Source: a virus. Taken from it: a stretch of 64,000 bases of DNA. The stretch is taken from positions 1-64,000 of the IMG/VR virus record IMGVR_UViG_3300033233_000019; one strand, written 5' to 3'. The notes under the pieces were generated by a model. That model worked only from the letters and a program-made list of their open reading frames with translations. It searched no databases and had not been told where the DNA came from. The translations under genes were made by a program, and so were the position numbers. This document shows, piece by piece, positions 20,850 through 31,019 of this stretch (position 1 is the first letter of the stretch; each line of letters starts with the position of its first letter).

Positions 20850-20925
20850 TGGAGCCGGGAGCGTGGGTCGAACACGCAGCCTTCTGATTACAGATCAGAT
20901 ACTCTGCCAATTGAGTTATCCCGGC
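20850..20925 (-). tRNA. tRNA-Thr(TGT), atypical C33
   Basis: Full 76-nt cloverleaf GCCGGGA-TA-ACTC-AATTGGCA-GAGT-A-TCTGA-TCTGTAA-TCAGA-AGGCT-GCGTG-TTCGACC-CACGC-TCCCGGC-T-CCA. Confidence 0.9.
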
Positions 20926-22749: not shown

Positions 22750-24387
22750 TTAACTTCCACAACTTCCTCCTCGCAAGTCGCAAACGTCCGCTTGCTCGTA
22801 AATTATTTCGTCCTTGTGCTTCAGCGCCGTTTGATACGACACCGGGACTAATGGTTGACCGCTTCGCGCACCATCCGGGTAAAACGTAATGCCGCGCAAT
22901 TGAGGCAAGTACTTCATCAGCATCTTGCCCATCGGCTTAACCTTGTCTTCGTTGTTCCACTCGCTGCCCCAAGGCGGCAAGTTGATTGTGCTGCTAATCG
23001 CATGATCCACGTAACGCTGCATGAATGCTTGAAAAGCAACGCGGCGCTCCGGGGTTTTCGACAACTCGTAAGCGTCTTCAATCTTGTCTGGATCGATACC
23101 TTTCTTGATCAACCTCTCAGCAGTTGGGTCAACGACGTACTGAAGGGCGCGTTTCTTGCCATCGGTGAAATAAAGTCTGCGATACGCAACACAGAGTATA
23201 GGCTCAATACAAGTAGTAGTTTCTCCCACAATTCCGATAGTTCCATTCGGAGCGAGGGCGCGATTCTTGACTGGTGTCGATAGGTTCCAAAGCTTCGCGT
23301 ATTTTTTGGACGCATCGTCGCTCTCCTGTTCATAAAGCATCAACCAAGCTTTCAACTCTTCGCACTCACCATAGACGTGTCCGCGTGTGAGCAACCACTC
23401 TGCGACTCCCATCAGACCTAATCCAAGGCGGCGGTTCTTATCTCTAACTTCACGAATCTTCTCTGTCGGAACATCGCTATAGACTGTCCCGGCCAACAGA
23501 AACGCGATTGCTGCTTGGACTGCTTGTTGGAACTCAAGCAGTGAGGCAAATCTCACCATGTTGAGCGATCCAAGATTGCAGATATCGCTGTCTTCGTGGC
23601 TCGTGATTTCGGTACACGCATTTCGTAAGTTTTCCCCTTCGTTCTTGAAAGCGTCGATGCTGAAGCCGGGGTCACCCGTGCTCATCGCTTGCTTCAGTGT
23701 CTTGTAAAACCTTTTGCGTGTGTGGGTGCCGTCAGCTTCAAACTTTCTGAAAAACTCCGTGTCCAAAATCGTGCTGATGTTCGTCATGTCGAGCGGCGCA
23801 GGAAAATCATAATCCTTCGCCTTCAACGCCACAACTTCCGGCGACCAATTCTTGATCGTAGTGAACGTATCAATGTCAGGATGATTCCAGTGCAGCCCTG
23901 CCCAAATCGCGCCTCTACGATTACCACCAGAGCGAATGAATCGCCCGGACTCATTGACCATTTGCATCAATGCAAGCGGCCCACTGGCGACACCGCCTGT
24001 CTTCTTGATTGGCTCACCATATCCGCGAAGATCGGAATACACCACACCTTCGCCAGCACCAGTCATAAGTGACATGCTGGATTTGTACATCAAGCCAGAC
24101 CAACCCTCACGACTGTCTTCGGCGCGGAACAACGCACAATTCTGTGTTTGGTGAAATGGTTTTCCGGTTGCTGCCAAATAACGACCACCGGGAAGAAATT
24201 TTCTGTCACGAATCAGACCTTCAACAAACGCGATCAACTCTTTGTCTTTGGTTACAGAACTGAGGACAGTGTGCGCGACTCTATGTGCCAACTCTGCCCA
24301 TGTTTCTTTCGTACCGTCGCCCTTCACTTGCAGATATCGGTTCTTGGCAACTTCTCGTGCGAGACTACCCCACTTGTCCAGACTCAT
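22750..24387 (-). CDS. nrdJ: class II (adenosylcobalamin-dependent) ribonucleotide reductase
   Basis: FLPGGR, QNC, RRGA, NACTEI (thiyl Cys), CNLGSLN, R.LGLG.MG, APNGT, ISSTIN, C-terminal Cys pair; no nrdB nearby. Confidence 0.88.
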   Translation of the reverse strand: MSLDKWGSLAREVAKNRYLQVKGDGTKETWAELAHRVAHTVLSSVTKDKELIAFVEGLIRDRKFLPGGRYLAATGKPFHQTQNCALFRAEDSREGWSGLMYKSSMSLMTGAGEGVVYSDLRGYGEPIKKTGGVASGPLALMQMVNESGRFIRSGGNRRGAIWAGLHWNHPDIDTFTTIKNWSPEVVALKAKDYDFPAPLDMTNISTILDTEFFRKFEADGTHTRKRFYKTLKQAMSTGDPGFSIDAFKNEGENLRNACTEITSHEDSDICNLGSLNMVRFASLLEFQQAVQAAIAFLLAGTVYSDVPTEKIREVRDKNRRLGLGLMGVAEWLLTRGHVYGECEELKAWLMLYEQESDDASKKYAKLWNLSTPVKNRALAPNGTIGIVGETTTCIEPILCVAYRRLYFTDGKKRALQYVVDPTAERLIKKGIDPDKIEDAYELSKTPERRVAFQAFMQRYVDHAISSTINLPPWGSEWNNEDKVKPMGKMLMKYLPQLRGITFYPDGARSGQPLVPVSYQTALKHKDEIIYEQADVCDLRGGSCGS

Positions 24388-24564
24388 TGCTCTCCTTGGA
24401 TGCTTCGTCTTCGTGCCGTTGCTGAATGTCTGCAATCATCATCAACGCCACGCCGCACGCGACAACTCGCTGATGAATGTCGTGCAGCGAAAGCATAACC
24501 AGAAGCATGATCAGTATATTGATTATGATGGCACCGATTACGATCCACATGTTTCCTCCAAAAA

Positions 24565-24952
24565 TTAACGGGCGCGTTCTGTTGCAAGGTCGCGCCCTAA
24601 CCCCTATCCGCGTTACGCCGAAGCGTAAGCGAAAGATGGTTCCACCGAAAGATGGGGAACAGTGATGGACTTGCGCCCACCCTGCCAACCTTCAATCATG
24701 GAACTTGCGATAAACGGTTTAGCATTTATCCGTTGCATGTCGTTTTAAGGTGCGCCATACTACCACCGCATTGTCCATGATCCCTGAAATGTATCCGTCG
24801 AAACCTTGACACGCCCATTATAAACAGTTGAACACGTTTTTACGGCCCACGTTTGAACGTCAATGTTTGTCTTCGTTCAACTGCTTATGGTGGACGTGAC
24901 GAGAGTCGAACTCGTGTCCGCATACACCAACAATCACTTCATACCATGCTTA
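24565..24952 (-). ncRNA. ssrA: circularly permuted (two-piece) tmRNA
   Basis: Acceptor piece (T-arm ACGAG-TTCGACT-CTCGT, CACGTCC-A-CCA ending 24888) lies upstream of coding piece starting GGGCGTG-TCAAGGTTTCGAC at 24816; G3:U70 pair; tag frame 24723-24613. Confidence 0.9.
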
Positions 24953-25150
24953 AACTTATAAAATTTAGGGCGGGGTGGTTATGAACCGTTCCCCGTTATC
25001 CCCAAATGGCAAGTTGCGACCTTGCCGTGCTTATTGCCCACACCAACGGAGCGCCGTCTACAGTCCTGAATCTTGTACAGGCGTAACGTCCCGGCTAGAC
25101 TGCTACCGTATGTTGGAATATGCGATGCGCTTCACTGTGAGCAAACTTAA

Positions 25151-25861: not shown

Positions 25862-26392
25862 TTATTTCTGCCAGCTTCGGATCAGATTACCAATTAGCAC
25901 CCATTCGTCGTAGCTGAAGTGGTCAGACTTAGACCTATTGCATCGAGCACAGCACACTACACAATTATCCATTGTGTAACCTACCTTGTTATCTCGTCTG
26001 TCGAGCTTATAGCCGTTAGCGGTGCTATAGGGCTTCCAAACTACCTTATCGTCGCAATAATGACACCTATTTATGGTGGTGAACTTAACAAATTCGGCGT
26101 AAGTCAAGGACACTGTGGTGCGTGCTTTAGCTAACTTTACTAGCACGTTGTATAAAGCCTCAAATGGACGCAATTTATGGTGCGCTCTATAGCACGAATT
26201 ACAGCCTGTGTTCTTACCTCGCAATATATTAGATGCAGTCTTCGTAAATTCAATTCCGCATTTACAGCGGCATTGCCAGACTGAATGATGTCGGTCAGCA
26301 GTATATGTCGAAACTAAATAAAGAATTTTTAAGTTACCAAATACTCTTCCTGTAAGATTTACAAATTTATTAGGCATTATTTTCTCCAACAA
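25862..26392 (-). CDS. HNH-like endonuclease with N-terminal LTG..FG.L / CxCxCG domain
   Basis: NLTGRVFGNL...WQCRCKCG; CHYC...LDRRDNKVGY..DNCVVCCARCNRSK. Confidence 0.8.
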   Translation of the reverse strand: MLEKIMPNKFVNLTGRVFGNLKILYLVSTYTADRHHSVWQCRCKCGIEFTKTASNILRGKNTGCNSCYRAHHKLRPFEALYNVLVKLAKARTTVSLTYAEFVKFTTINRCHYCDDKVVWKPYSTANGYKLDRRDNKVGYTMDNCVVCCARCNRSKSDHFSYDEWVLIGNLIRSWQK

Positions 26393-28842
26393 CTATCGAT
26401 GTGAAAATCAAACGTCATTTTTACCTTGCTCATTTTTTCGGCAGCAGCTACAGCAAATGCTCTGCCAGTCATATTAGCCACAAGTTTGCTATACCGAACC
26501 GGGCATTGAACTAATAACTCGTCATGTACCATTGCCAAGATTTTTGCTTTCAACCGTGGCAATGTATGCCATAAAAAGGGCATTCCTTTAGAACTATATC
26601 CGCATCCCATAGCCAGTTTAATTATACTGGCATTCGTTCCCTGAATAGGGTGATTCTTGCCCTGCCGCTCAATACGCCCGAACATCGACTTCATCATTGA
26701 TGAGACTGTCCAAGCTTGAGGCATTTGGCGGTGGAGCATGTCATATAACGCTTCATCTGATGGCTTCTTGCCATTCGCTGCCGTGTACGCTTCGGTTTCA
26801 GTTTCGACTGTTTGCTCCCACAACGCCTCAGTCCACTTGGGCCGCATGATACCGAAAAACTTCGGGTCTTTCCGCATCCACTTTTCCCAACGCGATCCTT
26901 CCTCTTCCTTTGCTGACTCGATAATCTCTTGTATGGCGCGATCCCATGTTGGCTCAGGGAACAGTCGTCGGCGACCAAACATGTCCCACGCGGCGCGGTT
27001 GTCTCGTGCTGCTTGAGCCGATGCGTCCAAATAATTCCAAAGATCAGGGAAGCTGTCTTTGTGCTTATCCAAAATATCTTGAGCCTCTTCAACTGATTTA
27101 CCAGTCTGTGCGGCAAGGTTCGATGCCTGACCGCCGTAAGGGATCAGGAAGTTAGGAACCTTCGCATCATCACGCTTATGACCGTGATTCTGGCATTTGC
27201 ATTTCTTGTGCTGTGGTAATCCGTCAGCGCCAATCTTGTAGTACACACACTCAGGTGATGCCCACCCCGGCCATTCAGCAGGATACATCATTTCGGCGCA
27301 AACTTCGTGAACGTCGTCGCCGTGGTTAAATGCGTCGATCCAAACTTTCTCGCCAGACAACTCTGCCAGAATGCGAAGTTCTGCGCCTGACATGTCGGCA
27401 GTCACAATGCAGTAACCTTCAGGTTCGTCCGCGTCTGGTGGATCAGCCACGAAGCACGCACGAATCTCTTCCGCCTTTGGGATATTCTGACCGTTTGGTT
27501 GCGAACTTGTCGAGCGACCTGTTTCAGCATCTAGCTGATTGAACTTCGGGTGTAATCTATAATCGTAAGGATGCAGCCAGCCTTCCTGCCAGCCTTCGGC
27601 TTCCTTGGTTTTTTTGTGCTTGAATCCCGGCGAAGTTGTCCATGTGCTTGTCCACGTCTTGCCGTAGGTCTTAATCGACTTGGACAGCTTTCGGTATTTC
27701 AGGAATGCCGCGATCACCGGAACGTGCTTGTACTCCGACAGGTCGGAATCGTCTGTGCTCGTTAGCCCCTTTAGCCCCGGCATCGTTTCAAACACTTCAA
27801 GCATCTGAGCGCCTGATGAGTAATTGATCAGCGCATCACCTTCGCACTTGGCAACCAGATTGCGCTGCTTGGTGCGCCGCTTGCCAAGGTCGGATGCTTC
27901 CTTCTTCAACTTGTCACGCAGTGGTCGGCGCACTTGGTCTTTCAAGTCGATTGACTTCCACTTTTCCTGCGCTTCAGCAATCTGCACATCTGTAATCACG
28001 GCGCTCTTGGAACCAACAAGCGGAACAAGCACCGGGTCAAGTTCTTCAGTAAGCAGTTTTTTGAAATCTGCGATATTGCGATCACCAATTCCATTCCACT
28101 TGTCTGTGTCCACGCGCATACCGTGAATGTGCATGTCAATGAATGAGCCGATTGCGTTGTTCTCGATTCCGGCTATTTCAATCATGCTGGTGTCTTTGAG
28201 CAACGGATATTGAAGCTGGCGAAAAGCAAGTGGCAACACCACGTCAATCGCGGCATACTCAACTTGCTCCGATGTTATCGGGTCAGTCAGGTTGAATGAC
28301 ATTTGTAGGTCTTTGTTAATCTGCGCGTTGAAATAACGTGCGGCCATTTCCTCCATTGAGAAGTAGCCGTAATCTTTCAGCGAGTGTTCACCAGCCACGA
28401 GCAATCGCTCCACAACGTCGCACGAGAACAATTTCCACGTCCGCATTCCGAAGCACCAGTACGACTGCTCGTACTCAAACCCAAGATTGACTCCTACTTT
28501 AAGATAGTCACCAGTGCATAGGAAAGGAGTGAAAGCGTCAACCACAGCCCGTAGGCGAGGATCAAGGTTCTTACCATAGTTGCCCTGCGTGGCACCAAGT
28601 ACTGTGGAATTGCCGTCAACAAAAGCAAGCAGATCGACAACAAACTGTTCATTTCTGTCTCCAATCTGCCAGAGACGATCCCGGCGAACGTAGAAGTCCT
28701 TAGCCGGGGTCGTTTCTTTGTCCCACCCAAGAACTCGCTTGGACTTGAGCAAATGATTTGTCATTCGCAGCAATCCTGCACCGTCTGTCACGAGTGTTGG
28801 GTTCAACGGCGGATTCAACTTCAGTGGAGCTAACTCACTCAT
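26377..28842 (-). CDS. polA: family A DNA polymerase with 3'-5' exonuclease
   Basis: Exo I WDKET, TGRSTSSQPNGQNIP, motif A ADMSGAELR, motif B R...K..NF...YG, motif C VHDEL. Confidence 0.95.
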   Translation of the reverse strand: MSELAPLKLNPPLNPTLVTDGAGLLRMTNHLLKSKRVLGWDKETTPAKDFYVRRDRLWQIGDRNEQFVVDLLAFVDGNSTVLGATQGNYGKNLDPRLRAVVDAFTPFLCTGDYLKVGVNLGFEYEQSYWCFGMRTWKLFSCDVVERLLVAGEHSLKDYGYFSMEEMAARYFNAQINKDLQMSFNLTDPITSEQVEYAAIDVVLPLAFRQLQYPLLKDTSMIEIAGIENNAIGSFIDMHIHGMRVDTDKWNGIGDRNIADFKKLLTEELDPVLVPLVGSKSAVITDVQIAEAQEKWKSIDLKDQVRRPLRDKLKKEASDLGKRRTKQRNLVAKCEGDALINYSSGAQMLEVFETMPGLKGLTSTDDSDLSEYKHVPVIAAFLKYRKLSKSIKTYGKTWTSTWTTSPGFKHKKTKEAEGWQEGWLHPYDYRLHPKFNQLDAETGRSTSSQPNGQNIPKAEEIRACFVADPPDADEPEGYCIVTADMSGAELRILAELSGEKVWIDAFNHGDDVHEVCAEMMYPAEWPGWASPECVYYKIGADGLPQHKKCKCQNHGHKRDDAKVPNFLIPYGGQASNLAAQTGKSVEEAQDILDKHKDSFPDLWNYLDASAQAARDNRAAWDMFGRRRLFPEPTWDRAIQEIIESAKEEEGSRWEKWMRKDPKFFGIMRPKWTEALWEQTVETETEAYTAANGKKPSDEALYDMLHRQMPQAWTVSSMMKSMFGRIERQGKNHPIQGTNASIIKLAMGCGYSSKGMPFLWHTLPRLKAKILAMVHDELLVQCPVRYSKLVANMTGRAFAVAAAEKMSKVKMTFDFHIDSCWRK

Positions 28843-31019
28843 TTCGATCCCCATGAATCTTTGTACTCCCAATAGAGCCTGTGGCCTTCTTTTCCGTTTC
28901 TGTAGATTCCAATCTTGTCGGCCATGCGACACAACGTGTCCCACGAGCAACTTGTCTCTGCCATCAACTGCGCGTCGAAATCATCTACGTACCGTTTACT
29001 CTCGACTGCGAACACCGCCTTGATTGATTGCTCACGCTTGCTATTGCGCTTATCGTTGTTCACATCACGACTCTCGCGGTCCGCCGCAATGTCGTCGGCT
29101 GATTGCAAATTCTCTCCAAGATATTCGACCTTCGCTTGTTCACCAAGCTGCGGTAACGCTGGCATGACAAACCCAATCGTTTTGAAATCGATGCCGGGGA
29201 ACTGACCAAGATTGCGCTTGATCTGCGACATGGTGGTTATCTCATCGTTGCGAGTGAACATCCAACCCATACGAGCGACTTCACCAATCGCAGCGGAGCC
29301 ACCGATCTTATGCAATGCGTTCGCTACGCCTTGCTGTTTGTTGTGGTGGGCGATCAGCAGAATAGCAATCTGGTAATCCGCCGCCAGTCTTGACAGCGGC
29401 ATCATAATCTGCCGCACATCCTGTGTCTTGTCGCCTTTCTTGTTGCCAAGGTAATTCATCAGTGGATCGATCACGACCAACTTAATGTCGCTGTTTTCCA
29501 GAACTTGTTTCTCGATGTACTGAATGTCTTTGTCGAGATTGAGTGTGACAATCTCTCCCGGTCTGCCTTCGATACCTTGCACCATCAGCAATCGTTTTAG
29601 GTCACCATCTGCTGCCAAAAATCTTGGGCCGATGATCGTGTTGGGATCGTCTTCCTCAGACAGCAACAGCGTGGTCGCCGGATCGTTTTCATTTTTGGAG
29701 CCATCGATGAAGTCTGCACCATTGCTCAATCGAGCGGCGAAATCGAGAGCCATCAAAGTTTTACCGATGCCAGCATCACCGGAGAACACGGTAACGAATC
29801 CAAGCGGCACCCGATTCTTCCAGAGCCACTTCGTCGTGTCCATCTTCGCCAGATCAATCGTCACAACTTTGATGTGCTTCTCTGGCTCGACGACAGGCTC
29901 ATCGTCAACAGGTTGCGGTGTAAGCGCCGATTCCTTCAGTGTTGCGAAACTGAATCGTTTTCCGAACTTTGCCTCAGCCGCATCGCGGAACTGTCTCCAA
30001 TGATTTTCAGAGCACGAATTGTGAAAACAGAAATACCCCAATCCCGATGGACCAACGAAGACAGCAGCGTCTTTGTTGCCGTGCTCCGGGTTGAAGAAAC
30101 ATTCGTTGAGGACAAACTTGTATCGACCATCCGGGTCTTCTCCCTCGCTCTTAATTTCGATGCCGTAGAAATCCAGAAACGCACGCATGTGCTCTTTGGT
30201 GTATTCAACGTGCTTGCTAGCAACGAGGCCACTTCTCTTCGTGGTCACGGGAGTTATTGCCTTTGCAATCTCGACAGTCGAAGCAAGAGCAGTCAATTGC
30301 TCAAGTGTAACGCAATCCATTCCACCAACACCGTTGGCAACCAACTTCGATACGCGGTGAAATCTTTTCTGCGCCGCGTGCTCTTCCCCCTTGCGTGCCA
30401 TACTGCCGTAAGCTTTCACGATGCGTGCCGCATTGAAAACCGACTTGTCCACTTTCACTTTGTCAGTATCAAACTTCGCGGCCAGCGCACCCAAGACAGC
30501 TTTCAACAATGCAGTAACATCGCTAGTGTTGTCCAGATCAACGCGATACAGCAGATGGTAACCATTGCCAGAGTCTCCGAACAAGGGACGCGGCCAGCCT
30601 TCGGCCTTGAGATACTTGAAAATTTCAGATACCTTTTCCTTCGCAAGCGCCTTCTCCTCGTCTGAAGAACTGATGCCAGCCGCACGCTGTGGGTCAATGT
30701 CCAGCAGCAGCCAACGGCGGCGAAGAATTTGAGAGTCTTGGGTTGTCTCGTTCGCATTCTCGCGTGACTTGTTGCACGAGCGGGAAATCAGCGACGGTTC
30801 GCAGGGATTCAACGTATAGTAAACAGCGGTATAGCATTGGCCTACTTCCCTAATATCTTTTGCCAACTCCCCATGATCATCGTAGTAACCAGAAATTGTA
30901 CCAAGGTTGCGCCCGTTTTCAGCTTTCGCTTTCGGGATTCGGAGTTCGACTACTGCGCCTTCGGGAAACAGCGCAGTGATTGCTGCACGAATGTCTTCCA
31001 ACTTAATTTCTTCCGCCAT
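28839..31019 (-). CDS. primase (AEP-like)-helicase (RecA/AAA_25) fusion
   Basis: LLDID, SGNGYHL, C..H/CFH..C zinc motif, GDAGIGKT, SEED, VVIDPL, HHNK. Confidence 0.85.
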   Translation of the reverse strand: MAEEIKLEDIRAAITALFPEGAVVELRIPKAKAENGRNLGTISGYYDDHGELAKDIREVGQCYTAVYYTLNPCEPSLISRSCNKSRENANETTQDSQILRRRWLLLDIDPQRAAGISSSDEEKALAKEKVSEIFKYLKAEGWPRPLFGDSGNGYHLLYRVDLDNTSDVTALLKAVLGALAAKFDTDKVKVDKSVFNAARIVKAYGSMARKGEEHAAQKRFHRVSKLVANGVGGMDCVTLEQLTALASTVEIAKAITPVTTKRSGLVASKHVEYTKEHMRAFLDFYGIEIKSEGEDPDGRYKFVLNECFFNPEHGNKDAAVFVGPSGLGYFCFHNSCSENHWRQFRDAAEAKFGKRFSFATLKESALTPQPVDDEPVVEPEKHIKVVTIDLAKMDTTKWLWKNRVPLGFVTVFSGDAGIGKTLMALDFAARLSNGADFIDGSKNENDPATTLLLSEEDDPNTIIGPRFLAADGDLKRLLMVQGIEGRPGEIVTLNLDKDIQYIEKQVLENSDIKLVVIDPLMNYLGNKKGDKTQDVRQIMMPLSRLAADYQIAILLIAHHNKQQGVANALHKIGGSAAIGEVARMGWMFTRNDEITTMSQIKRNLGQFPGIDFKTIGFVMPALPQLGEQAKVEYLGENLQSADDIAADRESRDVNNDKRNSKREQSIKAVFAVESKRYVDDFDAQLMAETSCSWDTLCRMADKIGIYRNGKEGHRLYWEYKDSWGSK

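What the first reader, a model, noticed from the sequence alone, without database searches (positions are those of the whole stretch)
24565..24952. Phage-encoded circularly permuted two-piece tmRNA with an unusually long tag
Seen (minus strand): the acceptor piece UAAGCAUGG...UGUAUGCG-GAC-ACGAG-UUCGACU-CUCGU-CACGUCC-A-CCA (ends 24888) precedes the coding piece starting GGGCGUG-UCAAGGUUUCGA-CGGAUACA (24816). The two halves form a 7-bp acceptor stem with G3:U70 and A73 (Ala identity) plus P2 helices. The 71-nt spacer is closed by a 13-bp stem (UAAGCAGUUGAAC/GUUCAACUGUUUA). After AUAAAU, the resume codon GCU opens 36 codons: AKPFIASSMIEGWQGGRKSITVPHLSVEPSFAYASA*. Established: permuted tmRNAs are known mainly from Alphaproteobacteria and some Betaproteobacteria and Cyanobacteria, and most tags are about 10 aa. 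No smpB lies in this window. Inference: an independent permutation lineage in a phage; the long tag may re-route rescued proteins or add an adaptor site.
Basis: partly seen in the sequence, partly recalled or inferred. Interest (0 to 1): 0.8.

Follow-up and report, generated by a model that had tools for sequence, protein, structure and literature searches.

The report
Phage two-piece tmRNA, 36-codon tag
An uncultured 99-kb sediment phage carries a genuine "swapped-order" ribosome-rescue RNA (tmRNA). Such phage genes are already known, and its unusually long 36-codon tag is an ordinary 14-codon tag with one 66-base hairpin inserted in frame.

Summary
Window 24952-24560 (minus strand) is a circularly permuted tmRNA gene: Rfam RF04321 scores 56 bits against a cut-off of 47. 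It has a 7-bp acceptor stem with G3:U70, A73 and an encoded CCA, plus a T-arm, PK1, a GCU resume codon and a 36-codon frame whose stop lies in a hairpin. The record is a complete 98.9-kb phage with no SmpB, ClpP, Lon or SspB.

The claim of an independent permutation lineage is not supported.
- The 3' pseudoknot carries the alphaproteobacterial signature ACCUNGCAACAGAAC.
- A sister phage's tmRNA at the same genome position passes the alpha model, RF01849.
- Phage two-piece tmRNAs are published (PMC9004378), and this scan has reported them before on other DNA.

What is new here:
- The extra 22 codons are one 66-nt self-complementary module in frame. Without it the tag reads AKPFIATSFAYASA.
- ARAGORN misses the gene only because the tag exceeds 33 codons.
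- Related soil and sediment phages carry tags of 26-36 codons. Among them is the cultured Acidobacteriota phage Tunturi_3, whose tmRNA is unannotated.
- Sampled Acidobacteriota genomes have one-piece tmRNAs with tags of 8-10 residues. Some end in FAYAA, which the window's tag resembles.

Processing, alanine charging and tagging are inferred, not shown. Verdict: a new member of a known kind, of moderate interest.

The parts
24888..24952 (-). Acceptor piece. It holds the 5' strands of the P2 helices, the T-arm, the 3' strand of the acceptor stem, A73 and the encoded CCA. The 5' end is approximate.
   Evidence: RF04321 alignment starts at 24948. Relatives share a conserved AAGUUAAGCAUG-like leader at this point. 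Coordinates.
24899..24915 (-). T-arm: ACGAG / UUCGACU / CUCGU.
   Evidence: 5 of 5 pairs form. All 5 positions covary across 15 related phage tmRNAs without a single broken pair.
24888..24898 (-). Acceptor 3' strand CACGUCC, discriminator A73 and CCA.
   Evidence: It pairs 7 of 7 with GGGCGUG at 24816-24810. G1-C72, G2-C71 and G3:U70 are invariant, and positions 4-6 covary, in 15 relatives.
24817..24887 (-). Intervening spacer, 71 nt, to be excised. A 14-bp closing stem starts right after CCA and ends 4 nt before G1.
   Evidence: Fold z = -3.25. Seven of 13 relatives scored have unrelated sequences forming closing stems of 10-13 bp; all seven end 4-5 nt before G1, and six start right after CCA.
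24560..24816 (-). Coding piece. In order: acceptor 5' strand, D-loop analogue, P2 3' strands, PK1, tag frame, stop-codon hairpin, 3' pseudoknot/terminator.
   Evidence: RF04321 alignment. The 3' end matches RF01849 locally. Coordinates.
24735..24767 (-). Pseudoknot PK1. Stem 1 is GGUG (24767-24764) with CACC (24752-24749). Stem 2 is GUAUG (24760-24756) with CAUGC (24739-24735).
   Evidence: All pairs form. It sits where the PK1 of L057, L011 and L008 sits, and 11 nt upstream of the resume codon as in L057.
24613..24723 (-). Tag reading frame: resume codon GCU, 36 codons (AKPFIAS...PSFAYASA), stop UAA.
   Evidence: Translation. The CM aligns AUAAAUGCUAA to the consensus resume context. ARAGORN picks the same resume codon once the tag is shortened. 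Two population variants inside the frame are synonymous.
24639..24704 (-). 66-nt (22-codon) self-complementary module inserted in frame in the tag.
   Evidence: Long imperfect hairpin: z = -4.07 with flanks and z = -2.8 for the tag alone. A relative's contig replaces the segment between 24638 and 24705 (66 nt) with 69 other letters. The module occurs once in the genome. Removing it leaves AKPFIATSFAYASA.
24613..24628 (-). Hairpin UUACGC-UUCG-GCGUAA containing the stop codon (equivalent to helix 5).
   Evidence: 6 of 6 pairs form. In relatives the stop codon also lies in a hairpin just upstream of the 3' pseudoknot.
24560..24604 (-). 3' pseudoknot that also looks like a terminator. GGGGU pairs with ACCUU and GGGCGCG with CGCGCCC. 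The loop holds ACCUUGCAACAGAAC, and GUUAAUUUUU follows.
   Evidence: Pairings. Local match to the 3' end of RF01849, 18.9 bits, E = 0.002. The 15-mer lies inside alphaproteobacterial permuted tmRNAs.

Best explanation
This is a functional phage ssrA gene of the alphaproteobacterial-type two-piece architecture. It lies in the replication module, between the DNA polymerase and ribonucleotide reductase genes.

Inferred mechanism:
1. The gene is transcribed as one precursor.
2. The stem-closed 71-nt spacer brings CCA-3' and G1 together and is cut out, presumably by RNase P at G1 plus host 3' processing.
3. The two pieces stay paired through the acceptor stem and the P2 helices.
4. Host AlaRS charges the RNA through G3:U70 and A73.
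5. Host SmpB and EF-Tu deliver it to stalled ribosomes.
6. Translation resumes at GCU and adds 36 residues ending in ...SFAYASA.

The likely benefit is extra ribosome-rescue capacity during infection, with the C-terminal hydrophobic end handing products to host proteases.

The unusual tag length comes from a single 66-nt self-complementary module inserted in frame into an otherwise ordinary 14-codon tag. The module must stay open and in frame to be read through.
For: Shown here:
- Gene identity. RF04321 scores 56 bits against 47. The acceptor stem, T-arm, PK1, stop hairpin and 3' pseudoknot all pair. The acceptor stem, T-arm and P2a covary in 15 related phage tmRNAs, with G3:U70 invariant. Spacer closing stems covary.
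- Independent caller. ARAGORN gives the same call and the same resume codon once the tag is 33 codons or fewer.
- Phage context. The record is rated complete, with terminase, portal, polymerase, primase-helicase and RNR genes.
- Conserved position. A tmRNA lies downstream of the polymerase in G001, L310, L312 and the cultured phage Tunturi_3.
- Population data. In three other sediment metagenomes the tag region is about 98% identical. The tag variants include two synonymous third-position changes (AUU>AUC, CCA>CCG), and a diverged contig has a 66-to-69-nt replacement that keeps the frame.
- Dependence on the host. No SmpB, ClpP, Lon or SspB is found in the genome.
- Tag ending. The tag end SFAYASA resembles Acidobacteriota tags such as ANSFAYAA and ANTQFAYAA. 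The nearest cultured relative infects an acidobacterium.

Inferred from established knowledge: processing into two pieces and function with SmpB (Keiler et al. 2000, as cited in PMC9004378 and PMC8012679).
Against: - There is no RNA, aminoacylation or tagging evidence for this gene or any close relative.
- No sigma-70-like promoter was found nearby.
- P2a has one G-G mismatch and the outer P2 helix one mismatch.
- The tag ends in Ser-Ala rather than the Ala-Ala that ClpX reads in model systems (my own knowledge). Degradation may therefore be weak.
- An open 36-codon frame alone is not strong evidence: 24% of shuffles of the 108 nt stay open.
- One population variant (CAG>GCA, near a contig end) would break 3 pairs of the inserted hairpin.
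- The host is inferred only from 50% terminase identity to one cultured phage and from the tag ending.
Confidence: 0.8

Rival explanations
1. The extra length is selected as RNA, not as peptide. On this reading the 66-nt hairpin is an expansion of the mRNA-like domain, for example to stabilise the RNA, slow the ribosome or bind a protein. The 22 extra residues are a passenger that only has to stay open and in frame.
For: - The insert is one discrete, exactly 66-nt self-complementary unit (z = -2.8 to -4.1).
- In a relative it is swapped for a different 69-nt segment between conserved flanks.
- All nine long-tag relatives tested (26-36 codons) are predicted to place the extra codons mostly in one extended stem-loop. 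L266 gives z = -3.65 and L312 z = -2.95.
- Between L263 and L269, one pair of the inner hairpin changes on both sides (G-C to A-U), with amino-acid changes on both strands.
Against: - Six of the nine long-tag relatives tested give only weak z-scores, -0.4 to -1.3.
- RNAalifold on five members of one subclade did not keep a long hairpin; only a 4-bp inner stem survived.
- In that subclade the peptide (SAK.AKVLAFPA...AL.MAA) is conserved through synonymous changes, with pN/pS of 0.2-0.7 in 9 of 10 pairs.
- The window's own hairpin has no alignable homologue, so covariation cannot be tested on it.
Confidence: 0.35
2. The long tag is a functional peptide, that is an adaptor or alternative-protease site, or a signal that re-routes rescued proteins.
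For: - Long tags of 26-36 codons recur in related phages and share motifs. RKV.V or RKS..V occurs in L011, Tunturi_3 and the window, and AKV[LI] followed within 1-2 residues by F and P occurs in L263, L269, L267, L353, L356 and L358.
- pN/pS is mostly below 1 in one subclade.
- Population variants in the window's tag are synonymous.
Against: - The window's 22 extra residues align poorly with the other long tags.
- The phage encodes no adaptor or protease of its own.
- Part of the subclade's conservation was imposed by the search pattern used to find it.
- No biochemical data exist.
Confidence: 0.2
3. The RNA acts as a decoy that titrates host SmpB or blocks host trans-translation, and the tag is irrelevant. 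A TLD-only tmRNA, as in mycobacteriophage DS6A, is the precedent.
For: - The phage has no SmpB, so its tmRNA must compete with the host's for that protein.
- The DS6A precedent, and inhibition by TLD-like molecules, are discussed in PMC4131195.
Against: A complete mRNA-like domain is kept: PK1, resume context, open frame, stop hairpin and 3' pseudoknot. The frame is preserved in population variants. None of this is needed for a decoy.
Confidence: 0.07
4. The permutation arose independently within a phage lineage, and this is a new permuted lineage.
For: - The window itself does not reach the thresholds of the alpha model (18.9 against 50 bits) or the beta model (38.8 against 84).
- Several relatives score slightly better with the beta model than with the alpha model.
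Against: - It has the same break point and the same single 3' pseudoknot, with the alpha signature 15-mer.
- The sister phage's tmRNA at the same position passes RF01849 full-length.
- More than 117 IMG/VR contigs carry the same signature, and among the fetched IMG/VR contigs ARAGORN called 41 permuted tmRNAs, most with typical alpha tags beginning ANDN.
Confidence: 0.05

Closest known systems
Phage-encoded two-piece tmRNAs of aquatic phages (Methylophilales phage Melnitz, pelagimyophages; Buchholz et al. 2022, PMC9004378)
   Same: - A circularly permuted ssrA carried by a lytic-type phage that has no SmpB.
- Alpha-type architecture in a phage whose probable host has a different tmRNA type.
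- Location among early or replication genes.
   Different: - A different phage group: about 95-99 kb, related to the podovirus Tunturi_3, from soil and sediment.
- No glutamine riboswitch was found.
- The tag has 36 codons because of an in-frame hairpin module.
- It is invisible to ARAGORN, the tool used in that survey.
Two-piece tmRNA of Alphaproteobacteria (Caulobacter ssrA; Rfam RF01849 alpha_tmRNA)
   Same: - The same gene order: acceptor piece, spacer, coding piece.
- PK1 is retained.
- A single 3' pseudoknot with the ACCUNGCAACAGAA loop.
- G3:U70, A73 and an encoded CCA.
   Different: - The window reaches only 18.9 bits on RF01849, in a local match to the 3' end.
- Alphaproteobacterial tags in my sample have 9-22 residues and start AN. 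This one starts AKP and has 36 codons.
- It is carried by a phage, probably of a non-alphaproteobacterial host.
One-piece tmRNAs of mycobacteriophages (Bxz1 group) and Bacillus phage G (PMC4131195)
   Same: A phage-borne ssrA without SmpB. The presumed role is ribosome rescue during infection.
   Different: Those are standard one-piece genes. This one is permuted.
One-piece tmRNA of Acidobacteriota (Rfam RF00023), the probable host type
   Same: The tag C-terminus is similar: the window ends ...SFAYASA, and host-type tags include ANSFAYAA and ANTQFAYAA.
   Different: The bacterial genes are one-piece (98-213 bits on RF00023) with tags of 8-10 residues. RF04321 gave no match in the four genomes tested.

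Membership tests
Permuted (two-piece) tmRNA, Rfam RF04321 | Covariance-model score at or above the curated gathering score | tested here: met
   56 bits against 47, model positions 1-213, E = 3e-8 for the window.
Permuted (two-piece) tmRNA, Rfam RF04321 | tRNA-Ala-like domain: 7-bp acceptor stem with G3:U70, discriminator A73, 3' CCA and a T-arm with a T-loop | tested here: met
   GGGCGUG/CACGUCC pair 7 of 7, followed by A73 and an encoded CCA. The T-arm pairs 5 of 5 with loop UUCGACU. The same pairs covary in 15 relatives.
Permuted (two-piece) tmRNA, Rfam RF04321 | Permuted gene order: the 3' acceptor half lies upstream of the 5' acceptor half, separated by an excised spacer | tested here: met
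   CCA ends at 24888, G1 is at 24816, and the spacer is 71 nt and closed by a stem.
Permuted (two-piece) tmRNA, Rfam RF04321 | PK1 followed by a resume codon and a tag frame that ends in a hydrophobic C-terminus, with the stop codon in a hairpin | tested here: met
   Both PK1 stems pair. GCU sits 11 nt downstream, as in L057. The frame ends ...FAYASA, with UAA inside the UUACGC-UUCG-GCGUAA hairpin. ARAGORN chooses the same frame.
Permuted (two-piece) tmRNA, Rfam RF04321 | Processing into two RNAs, charging with alanine, SmpB-dependent tagging | not testable with these tools
   No RNA-holding run was listed for this DNA.
Alphaproteobacterial tmRNA, Rfam RF01849 | Covariance-model score at or above the gathering score (50 bits) | tested here: not met
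   The window gives 18.9 bits, a local match to the 3' end only. The sister phage locus L002 reaches 59.9 bits full-length.
Alphaproteobacterial tmRNA, Rfam RF01849 | A 3' pseudoknot whose loop carries ACCUNGCAACAGAA | tested here: met
   The exact 15-mer lies at 24590-24576. In bacterial genomes, 39 of 120 hits lie inside permuted tmRNAs, and 24 of the 25 with readable titles are Alphaproteobacteria.
Betaproteobacterial tmRNA, Rfam RF01850 | Covariance-model score at or above the gathering score (84 bits) | tested here: not met
   38.8 bits, a local match to the tRNA-like core only.
Standard one-piece tmRNA, Rfam RF00023 | Colinear 5'-to-3' arrangement matching the model | tested here: not met
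   No RF00023 match is listed for the region even at E up to 10; matches overlapping a better hit of the same clan (tRNA clan CL00001) are suppressed in that output.

The most novel reading that the evidence does not exclude
Soil and sediment phages related to the Acidobacteriota podovirus Tunturi_3, and a wider set of phages sharing the same PK1, carry alpha-type two-piece tmRNAs whose tags have grown to 26-36 codons through in-frame structured insertions. Their probable hosts use one-piece tmRNAs with tags of 8-10 residues. On this reading the extended tags are functional, either as a peptide motif or as an RNA module that alters rescue kinetics or stability. They give phage-rescued proteins a fate different from host-rescued ones. 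They have been overlooked systematically because ARAGORN cannot report tags longer than 33 codons.
Probability: 0.3. Interest if true: 0.6.

Novelty: new member of a known kind. Interest (0 to 1): 0.35.

Why it matters
- **Detection bias.** Phage tmRNAs are counted mostly with ARAGORN. Three clade members with tags of 34 or 36 codons (window, L267, L312) were missed, along with five with shorter tags. The quoted upper limit of about 35 residues may therefore be partly a tool artefact.
- **A testable system.** The work also uncovers an unannotated two-piece tmRNA in a cultured Acidobacteriota phage, Tunturi_3. That gives a tractable phage-host pair for asking why a phage brings a rescue RNA of a different architecture, with a much longer tag, than its host's.
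- **Limits.** Beyond these two points the gene is a clean but ordinary example of a known class.

Tried and rejected
- **ARAGORN:** no call at default or lowered thresholds. explains this by tag length.
- **blastn against cultured phages:** the 701-nt region gave no match.
- **The tag read as a 41-aa ORF from AUG 24738:** no homologue among 5.8 billion proteins. There is no Shine-Dalgarno sequence, and the AUG lies inside PK1, so I rejected it as a separate gene.
- **Degenerate patterns for the tag peptide:** nothing in IMG/VR or in JGI metagenomes.
- **Exact T-arm/acceptor 28-mer in JGI metagenomes:** nothing. No alignable close relative of the window's tag could therefore be fetched.
- **Sequencing runs:** no RNA holder was listed. 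The contigs laid were DNA only.
- **Promoter and terminator scan:** nothing found. The 3' hairpin has a 14-nt loop, beyond that scan's 8-nt limit.
- **Hallmark 15-mer in bacterial genomes:** most of the 120 hits were chance matches in other phyla. Only the 39 inside tmRNA calls were used.
- **RNAalifold on five long-tag relatives:** it did not support a conserved long hairpin.
- **The 66-nt module as a repeat or mobile element:** rejected, because it is a single copy in the 98.9-kb genome and absent from all fetched loci.
- **Prophage att fragment of a host ssrA:** rejected. Both pieces are complete, and the gene is at the same mid-replication-module position in several relatives.
- **Phage-encoded partners:** none found for SmpB, ClpP, SspB or Lon.

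Full report
**Observation**

- The upstream part ends in a T-arm (ACGAG/UUCGACU/CUCGU), then CACGUCC, A and CCA, with the last A at 24888.
- A 71-nt spacer follows.
- GGGCGUG begins at 24816 and pairs 7 of 7 with CACGUCC, giving G3:U70 and A73.
- Rfam 15's permuted-tmRNA model RF04321 matches end to end at 56 bits (gathering score 47).
- The CM aligns AUAAAUGCUAA with the consensus resume context. Translation therefore resumes at GCU 24723-24721 and runs 36 codons to UAA at 24615-24613.

ARAGORN did not call the gene even at very low thresholds. When I deleted three or more internal codons from the tag in silico, it called a permuted tmRNA at default settings with the same resume codon. ARAGORN's failure is therefore caused by a cap at 33 codons. 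The shortened-tag calls also confirm the gene and its frame with a second, independent program.

**Context**

- The window is the first 64 kb of a 98,912-bp IMG/VR virus record that CheckV rates complete.
- Flanking genes on the same strand are a family-A DNA polymerase (26377-28950) and a ribonucleotide reductase (22750-24435). A primase-helicase, terminase and portal are also present.
- The whole record has no match to SmpB, ClpP, SspB or Lon, so the RNA must rely on host partners.

**Structure beyond the tRNA-like domain**

- PK1 can form with GGUG/CACC and GUAUG/CAUGC. It ends 11 nt before the resume codon, the same spacing as in relative L057.
- The stop codon lies in a UUACGC-UUCG-GCGUAA hairpin.
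- The RNA ends in a pseudoknot (GGGGU/ACCUU and GGGCGCG/CGCGCCC) followed by GUUAAUUUUU, which looks like the terminator.
- The spacer is closed by a 14-bp stem that starts directly after CCA and ends 4 nt before G1 (z = -3.25).

**Relatives and covariation**

Pattern and protein scans of IMG/VR retrieved related phage tmRNAs. Across 15 of them:
- all acceptor and T-arm pairs form;
- G1-C72, G2-C71 and G3:U70 never vary;
- acceptor positions 4-6, all five T-arm pairs and P2a covary.

Seven relatives have spacer closing stems of 10-13 bp made of unrelated sequence; all seven end 4-5 nt before G1, and six start right after CCA. This is the geometry expected for excision of the spacer. Excision is a logical necessity, because the CCA end lies upstream of the 5' end of the acceptor stem. 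It is inferred from the Caulobacter precedent, not shown here.

**Lineage**

- The loop of the 3' pseudoknot is ACCUUGCAACAGAAC. The same 15-mer (with N at position 5) occurs in more than 117 IMG/VR contigs. Among the IMG/VR contigs fetched up to that point, ARAGORN called 41 permuted tmRNAs, most with typical alphaproteobacterial tags beginning ANDN.
- In one genome per bacterial species, 39 of 120 hits lay inside permuted tmRNA calls. Of the 25 whose titles I could read, 24 were Alphaproteobacteria (Pelagibacterales, Bradyrhizobium, unnamed alpha MAGs). The other was a short contig binned as Bacteroidaceae.
- A sister phage (96 kb, polymerase 52-57% identical) has a tmRNA at the same position that passes the alpha model RF01849 full-length, 59.9 bits against 50.

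The window itself reaches neither the alpha threshold (18.9 bits, 3' end only) nor the beta threshold (38.8 bits, core only). I therefore file it under RF04321 and describe it as alpha-like. Some relatives score slightly higher with the beta model, so CM scores alone do not settle the lineage.

**Is a phage location new?**

No.
- One survey reports that 402 of 18,146 phage genomes carried tmRNA. That gave 133 unique forms, 53 of them two-piece and mostly aquatic. It includes the case of phage Melnitz, whose alpha-type ssrA differs from its host's type (PMC9004378).
- One-piece tmRNAs of mycobacteriophages are older knowledge (PMC4131195).
- This scan has also reported phage two-piece tmRNAs before on other DNA, including one with a long tag.

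**Host and the nearest cultured relative**

- The closest cultured phage is Tunturiibacter phage Tunturi_3: 97.6 kb, a podovirus, terminase 50% and polymerase 39% identical. Its host is an acidobacterium.
- Its GenBank record annotates only CDSs around the polymerase, and the paper never mentions tmRNA (PMC11924767).
- RF04321 nevertheless finds a permuted tmRNA at record 88172-88396, scoring 63.3 bits, in an unannotated gap downstream of the polymerase.
- In Acidobacteriota, 40 of 41 sampled genomes have a standard one-piece tmRNA. One of the 41, G032, is unpublished; without it the count is 39 of 40. Its tag was left out of the tag list.
- RF04321 gave no match in the four acidobacterial genomes tested.
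- Their tags have 8-10 residues. Four of 31 end in AYAA, for example ANSFAYAA and ANTQFAYAA. The window's tag ends ...PSFAYASA.

Together these points suggest, but do not prove, an acidobacterial host whose own tmRNA has a different architecture.

**The long tag**

Thirty-six codons is just above the 8-35 residues quoted in a review (PMC8012679), but it is not isolated. Phages sharing this polymerase or the same PK1 carry tag frames of these lengths:
- 26-27 codons: L263, L269, L353, L356, L358;
- 28 codons: L057, L266;
- 29 codons: Tunturi_3;
- 30 codons: L011;
- 34 codons: L267;
- 36 codons: L312;
- 10-14 codons in the remaining relatives.

In every case the first in-frame stop falls in the hairpin just upstream of the 3' pseudoknot.

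For the window, the extra length is one discrete unit.
- Positions 24704-24639 are exactly 66 nt (22 codons) and fold into a long imperfect hairpin. The fold gives z = -4.07 with flanks and z = -2.8 for the tag alone.
- The unit occurs only once in the genome.
- Removing it leaves the ordinary-looking 14-codon tag AKPFIATSFAYASA, which ARAGORN calls at default settings.
- Contigs from four other sediment metagenomes carry close relatives. In three of them the tag region (24592-24730) is about 98% identical.
- The variants inside the tag include AUU>AUC and CCA>CCG, both synonymous. A whole-codon CAG>GCA change also occurs near a contig end.
- One diverged contig replaces the segment between 24638 and 24705 with 69 other letters, again keeping the frame.
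- Other contigs keep the tRNA-like half but swap the tag half, so the tag region behaves as an exchangeable module.

**RNA or peptide?**

Unresolved.
- For RNA: all nine long-tag relatives tested are predicted to put the extra codons mostly in one extended stem-loop, and three of the ten long tags including the window's have z near -3. One pair in L263 and L269 changes on both sides, with amino-acid change on both strands.
- For peptide: one subclade conserves SAK.AKVLAFPA...AL.MAA through synonymous changes, with pN/pS of 0.2-0.7 in 9 of 10 pairs. Part of that motif was imposed by my search pattern. RNAalifold did not keep a long hairpin there.
- An open 108-nt frame by itself is weak evidence, because 24% of shuffles stay open.

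**Most likely mechanism**

Gene identity is shown. The rest is inferred.
1. The precursor is transcribed with the replication genes.
2. The stem-closed spacer is removed, giving a free CCA end at 24888 and a 5' end at G1 (24816).
3. The two pieces stay paired.
4. Host AlaRS, SmpB and EF-Tu use the RNA to rescue ribosomes stalled during infection.
5. Translation of the 36-codon frame appends a tag whose hydrophobic end resembles the host-type degron.

Rivals are a decoy for host SmpB, a purely RNA-level role for the insert, and a functional long peptide.

**Verdict**

- This is a real, well-formed phage two-piece tmRNA, a new member of a known kind.
- Points worth keeping are the in-frame hairpin origin of the long tag, ARAGORN's blind spot above 33 codons, the recurrence of 26-36-codon tags in this phage group, and the unannotated tmRNA in the cultured phage Tunturi_3.

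Noticed in passing
L303:3673-3948 (-) and the same coordinates in L308: Phages related to this one (polymerase 40% identical; one is a 109-kb IMG/VR contig) carry a match to bacterial RNase P RNA class A, RF00010. It scores 126.8 bits against a cut-off of 100, in only 276 nt. It sits inside an array of more than 20 tRNA genes just upstream of the polymerase. A phage-encoded, reduced RNase P RNA would be unusual.
   Followed up: no
L250:1501-1725 (-), which is PP885686.1 88172-88396: The cultured Tunturiibacter phage Tunturi_3 has an unannotated permuted tmRNA (RF04321, 63.3 bits). Its apparent tag has 29 codons starting at GUC and ending MLAA. The publication never mentions tmRNA.
   Followed up: partly
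L312:8764-9163 (+): An 89-kb relative has a tmRNA with a spacer of about 240 nt that contains two T-arm-like stretches. Its tag frame is also 36 codons, unrelated in sequence to the window's.
   Followed up: partly
window 24401-24734: In another sediment metagenome (run X3) a contig keeps the tRNA-like half of the tmRNA (24734-24955, 4 differences). It carries 727 other letters in place of the 332 that hold the tag, the 3' pseudoknot and the small downstream ORF. Other contigs keep the tag half and diverge in the tRNA-like half. The locus is a mosaic with a breakpoint just upstream of the resume codon.
   Followed up: partly
window 24384-24550 (-): A small hydrophobic ORF of about 55 aa with a GGAGG ribosome-binding site starts 10 nt after the tmRNA terminator, upstream of the ribonucleotide reductase gene.
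   Followed up: no
window 20853-20925 (-): tRNA-Thr (UGU), 62.7 bits, about 3.6 kb downstream of the tmRNA on the same strand.
   Followed up: no
It is separate from the tmRNA gene studied here, and I did not examine it.
   Followed up: no
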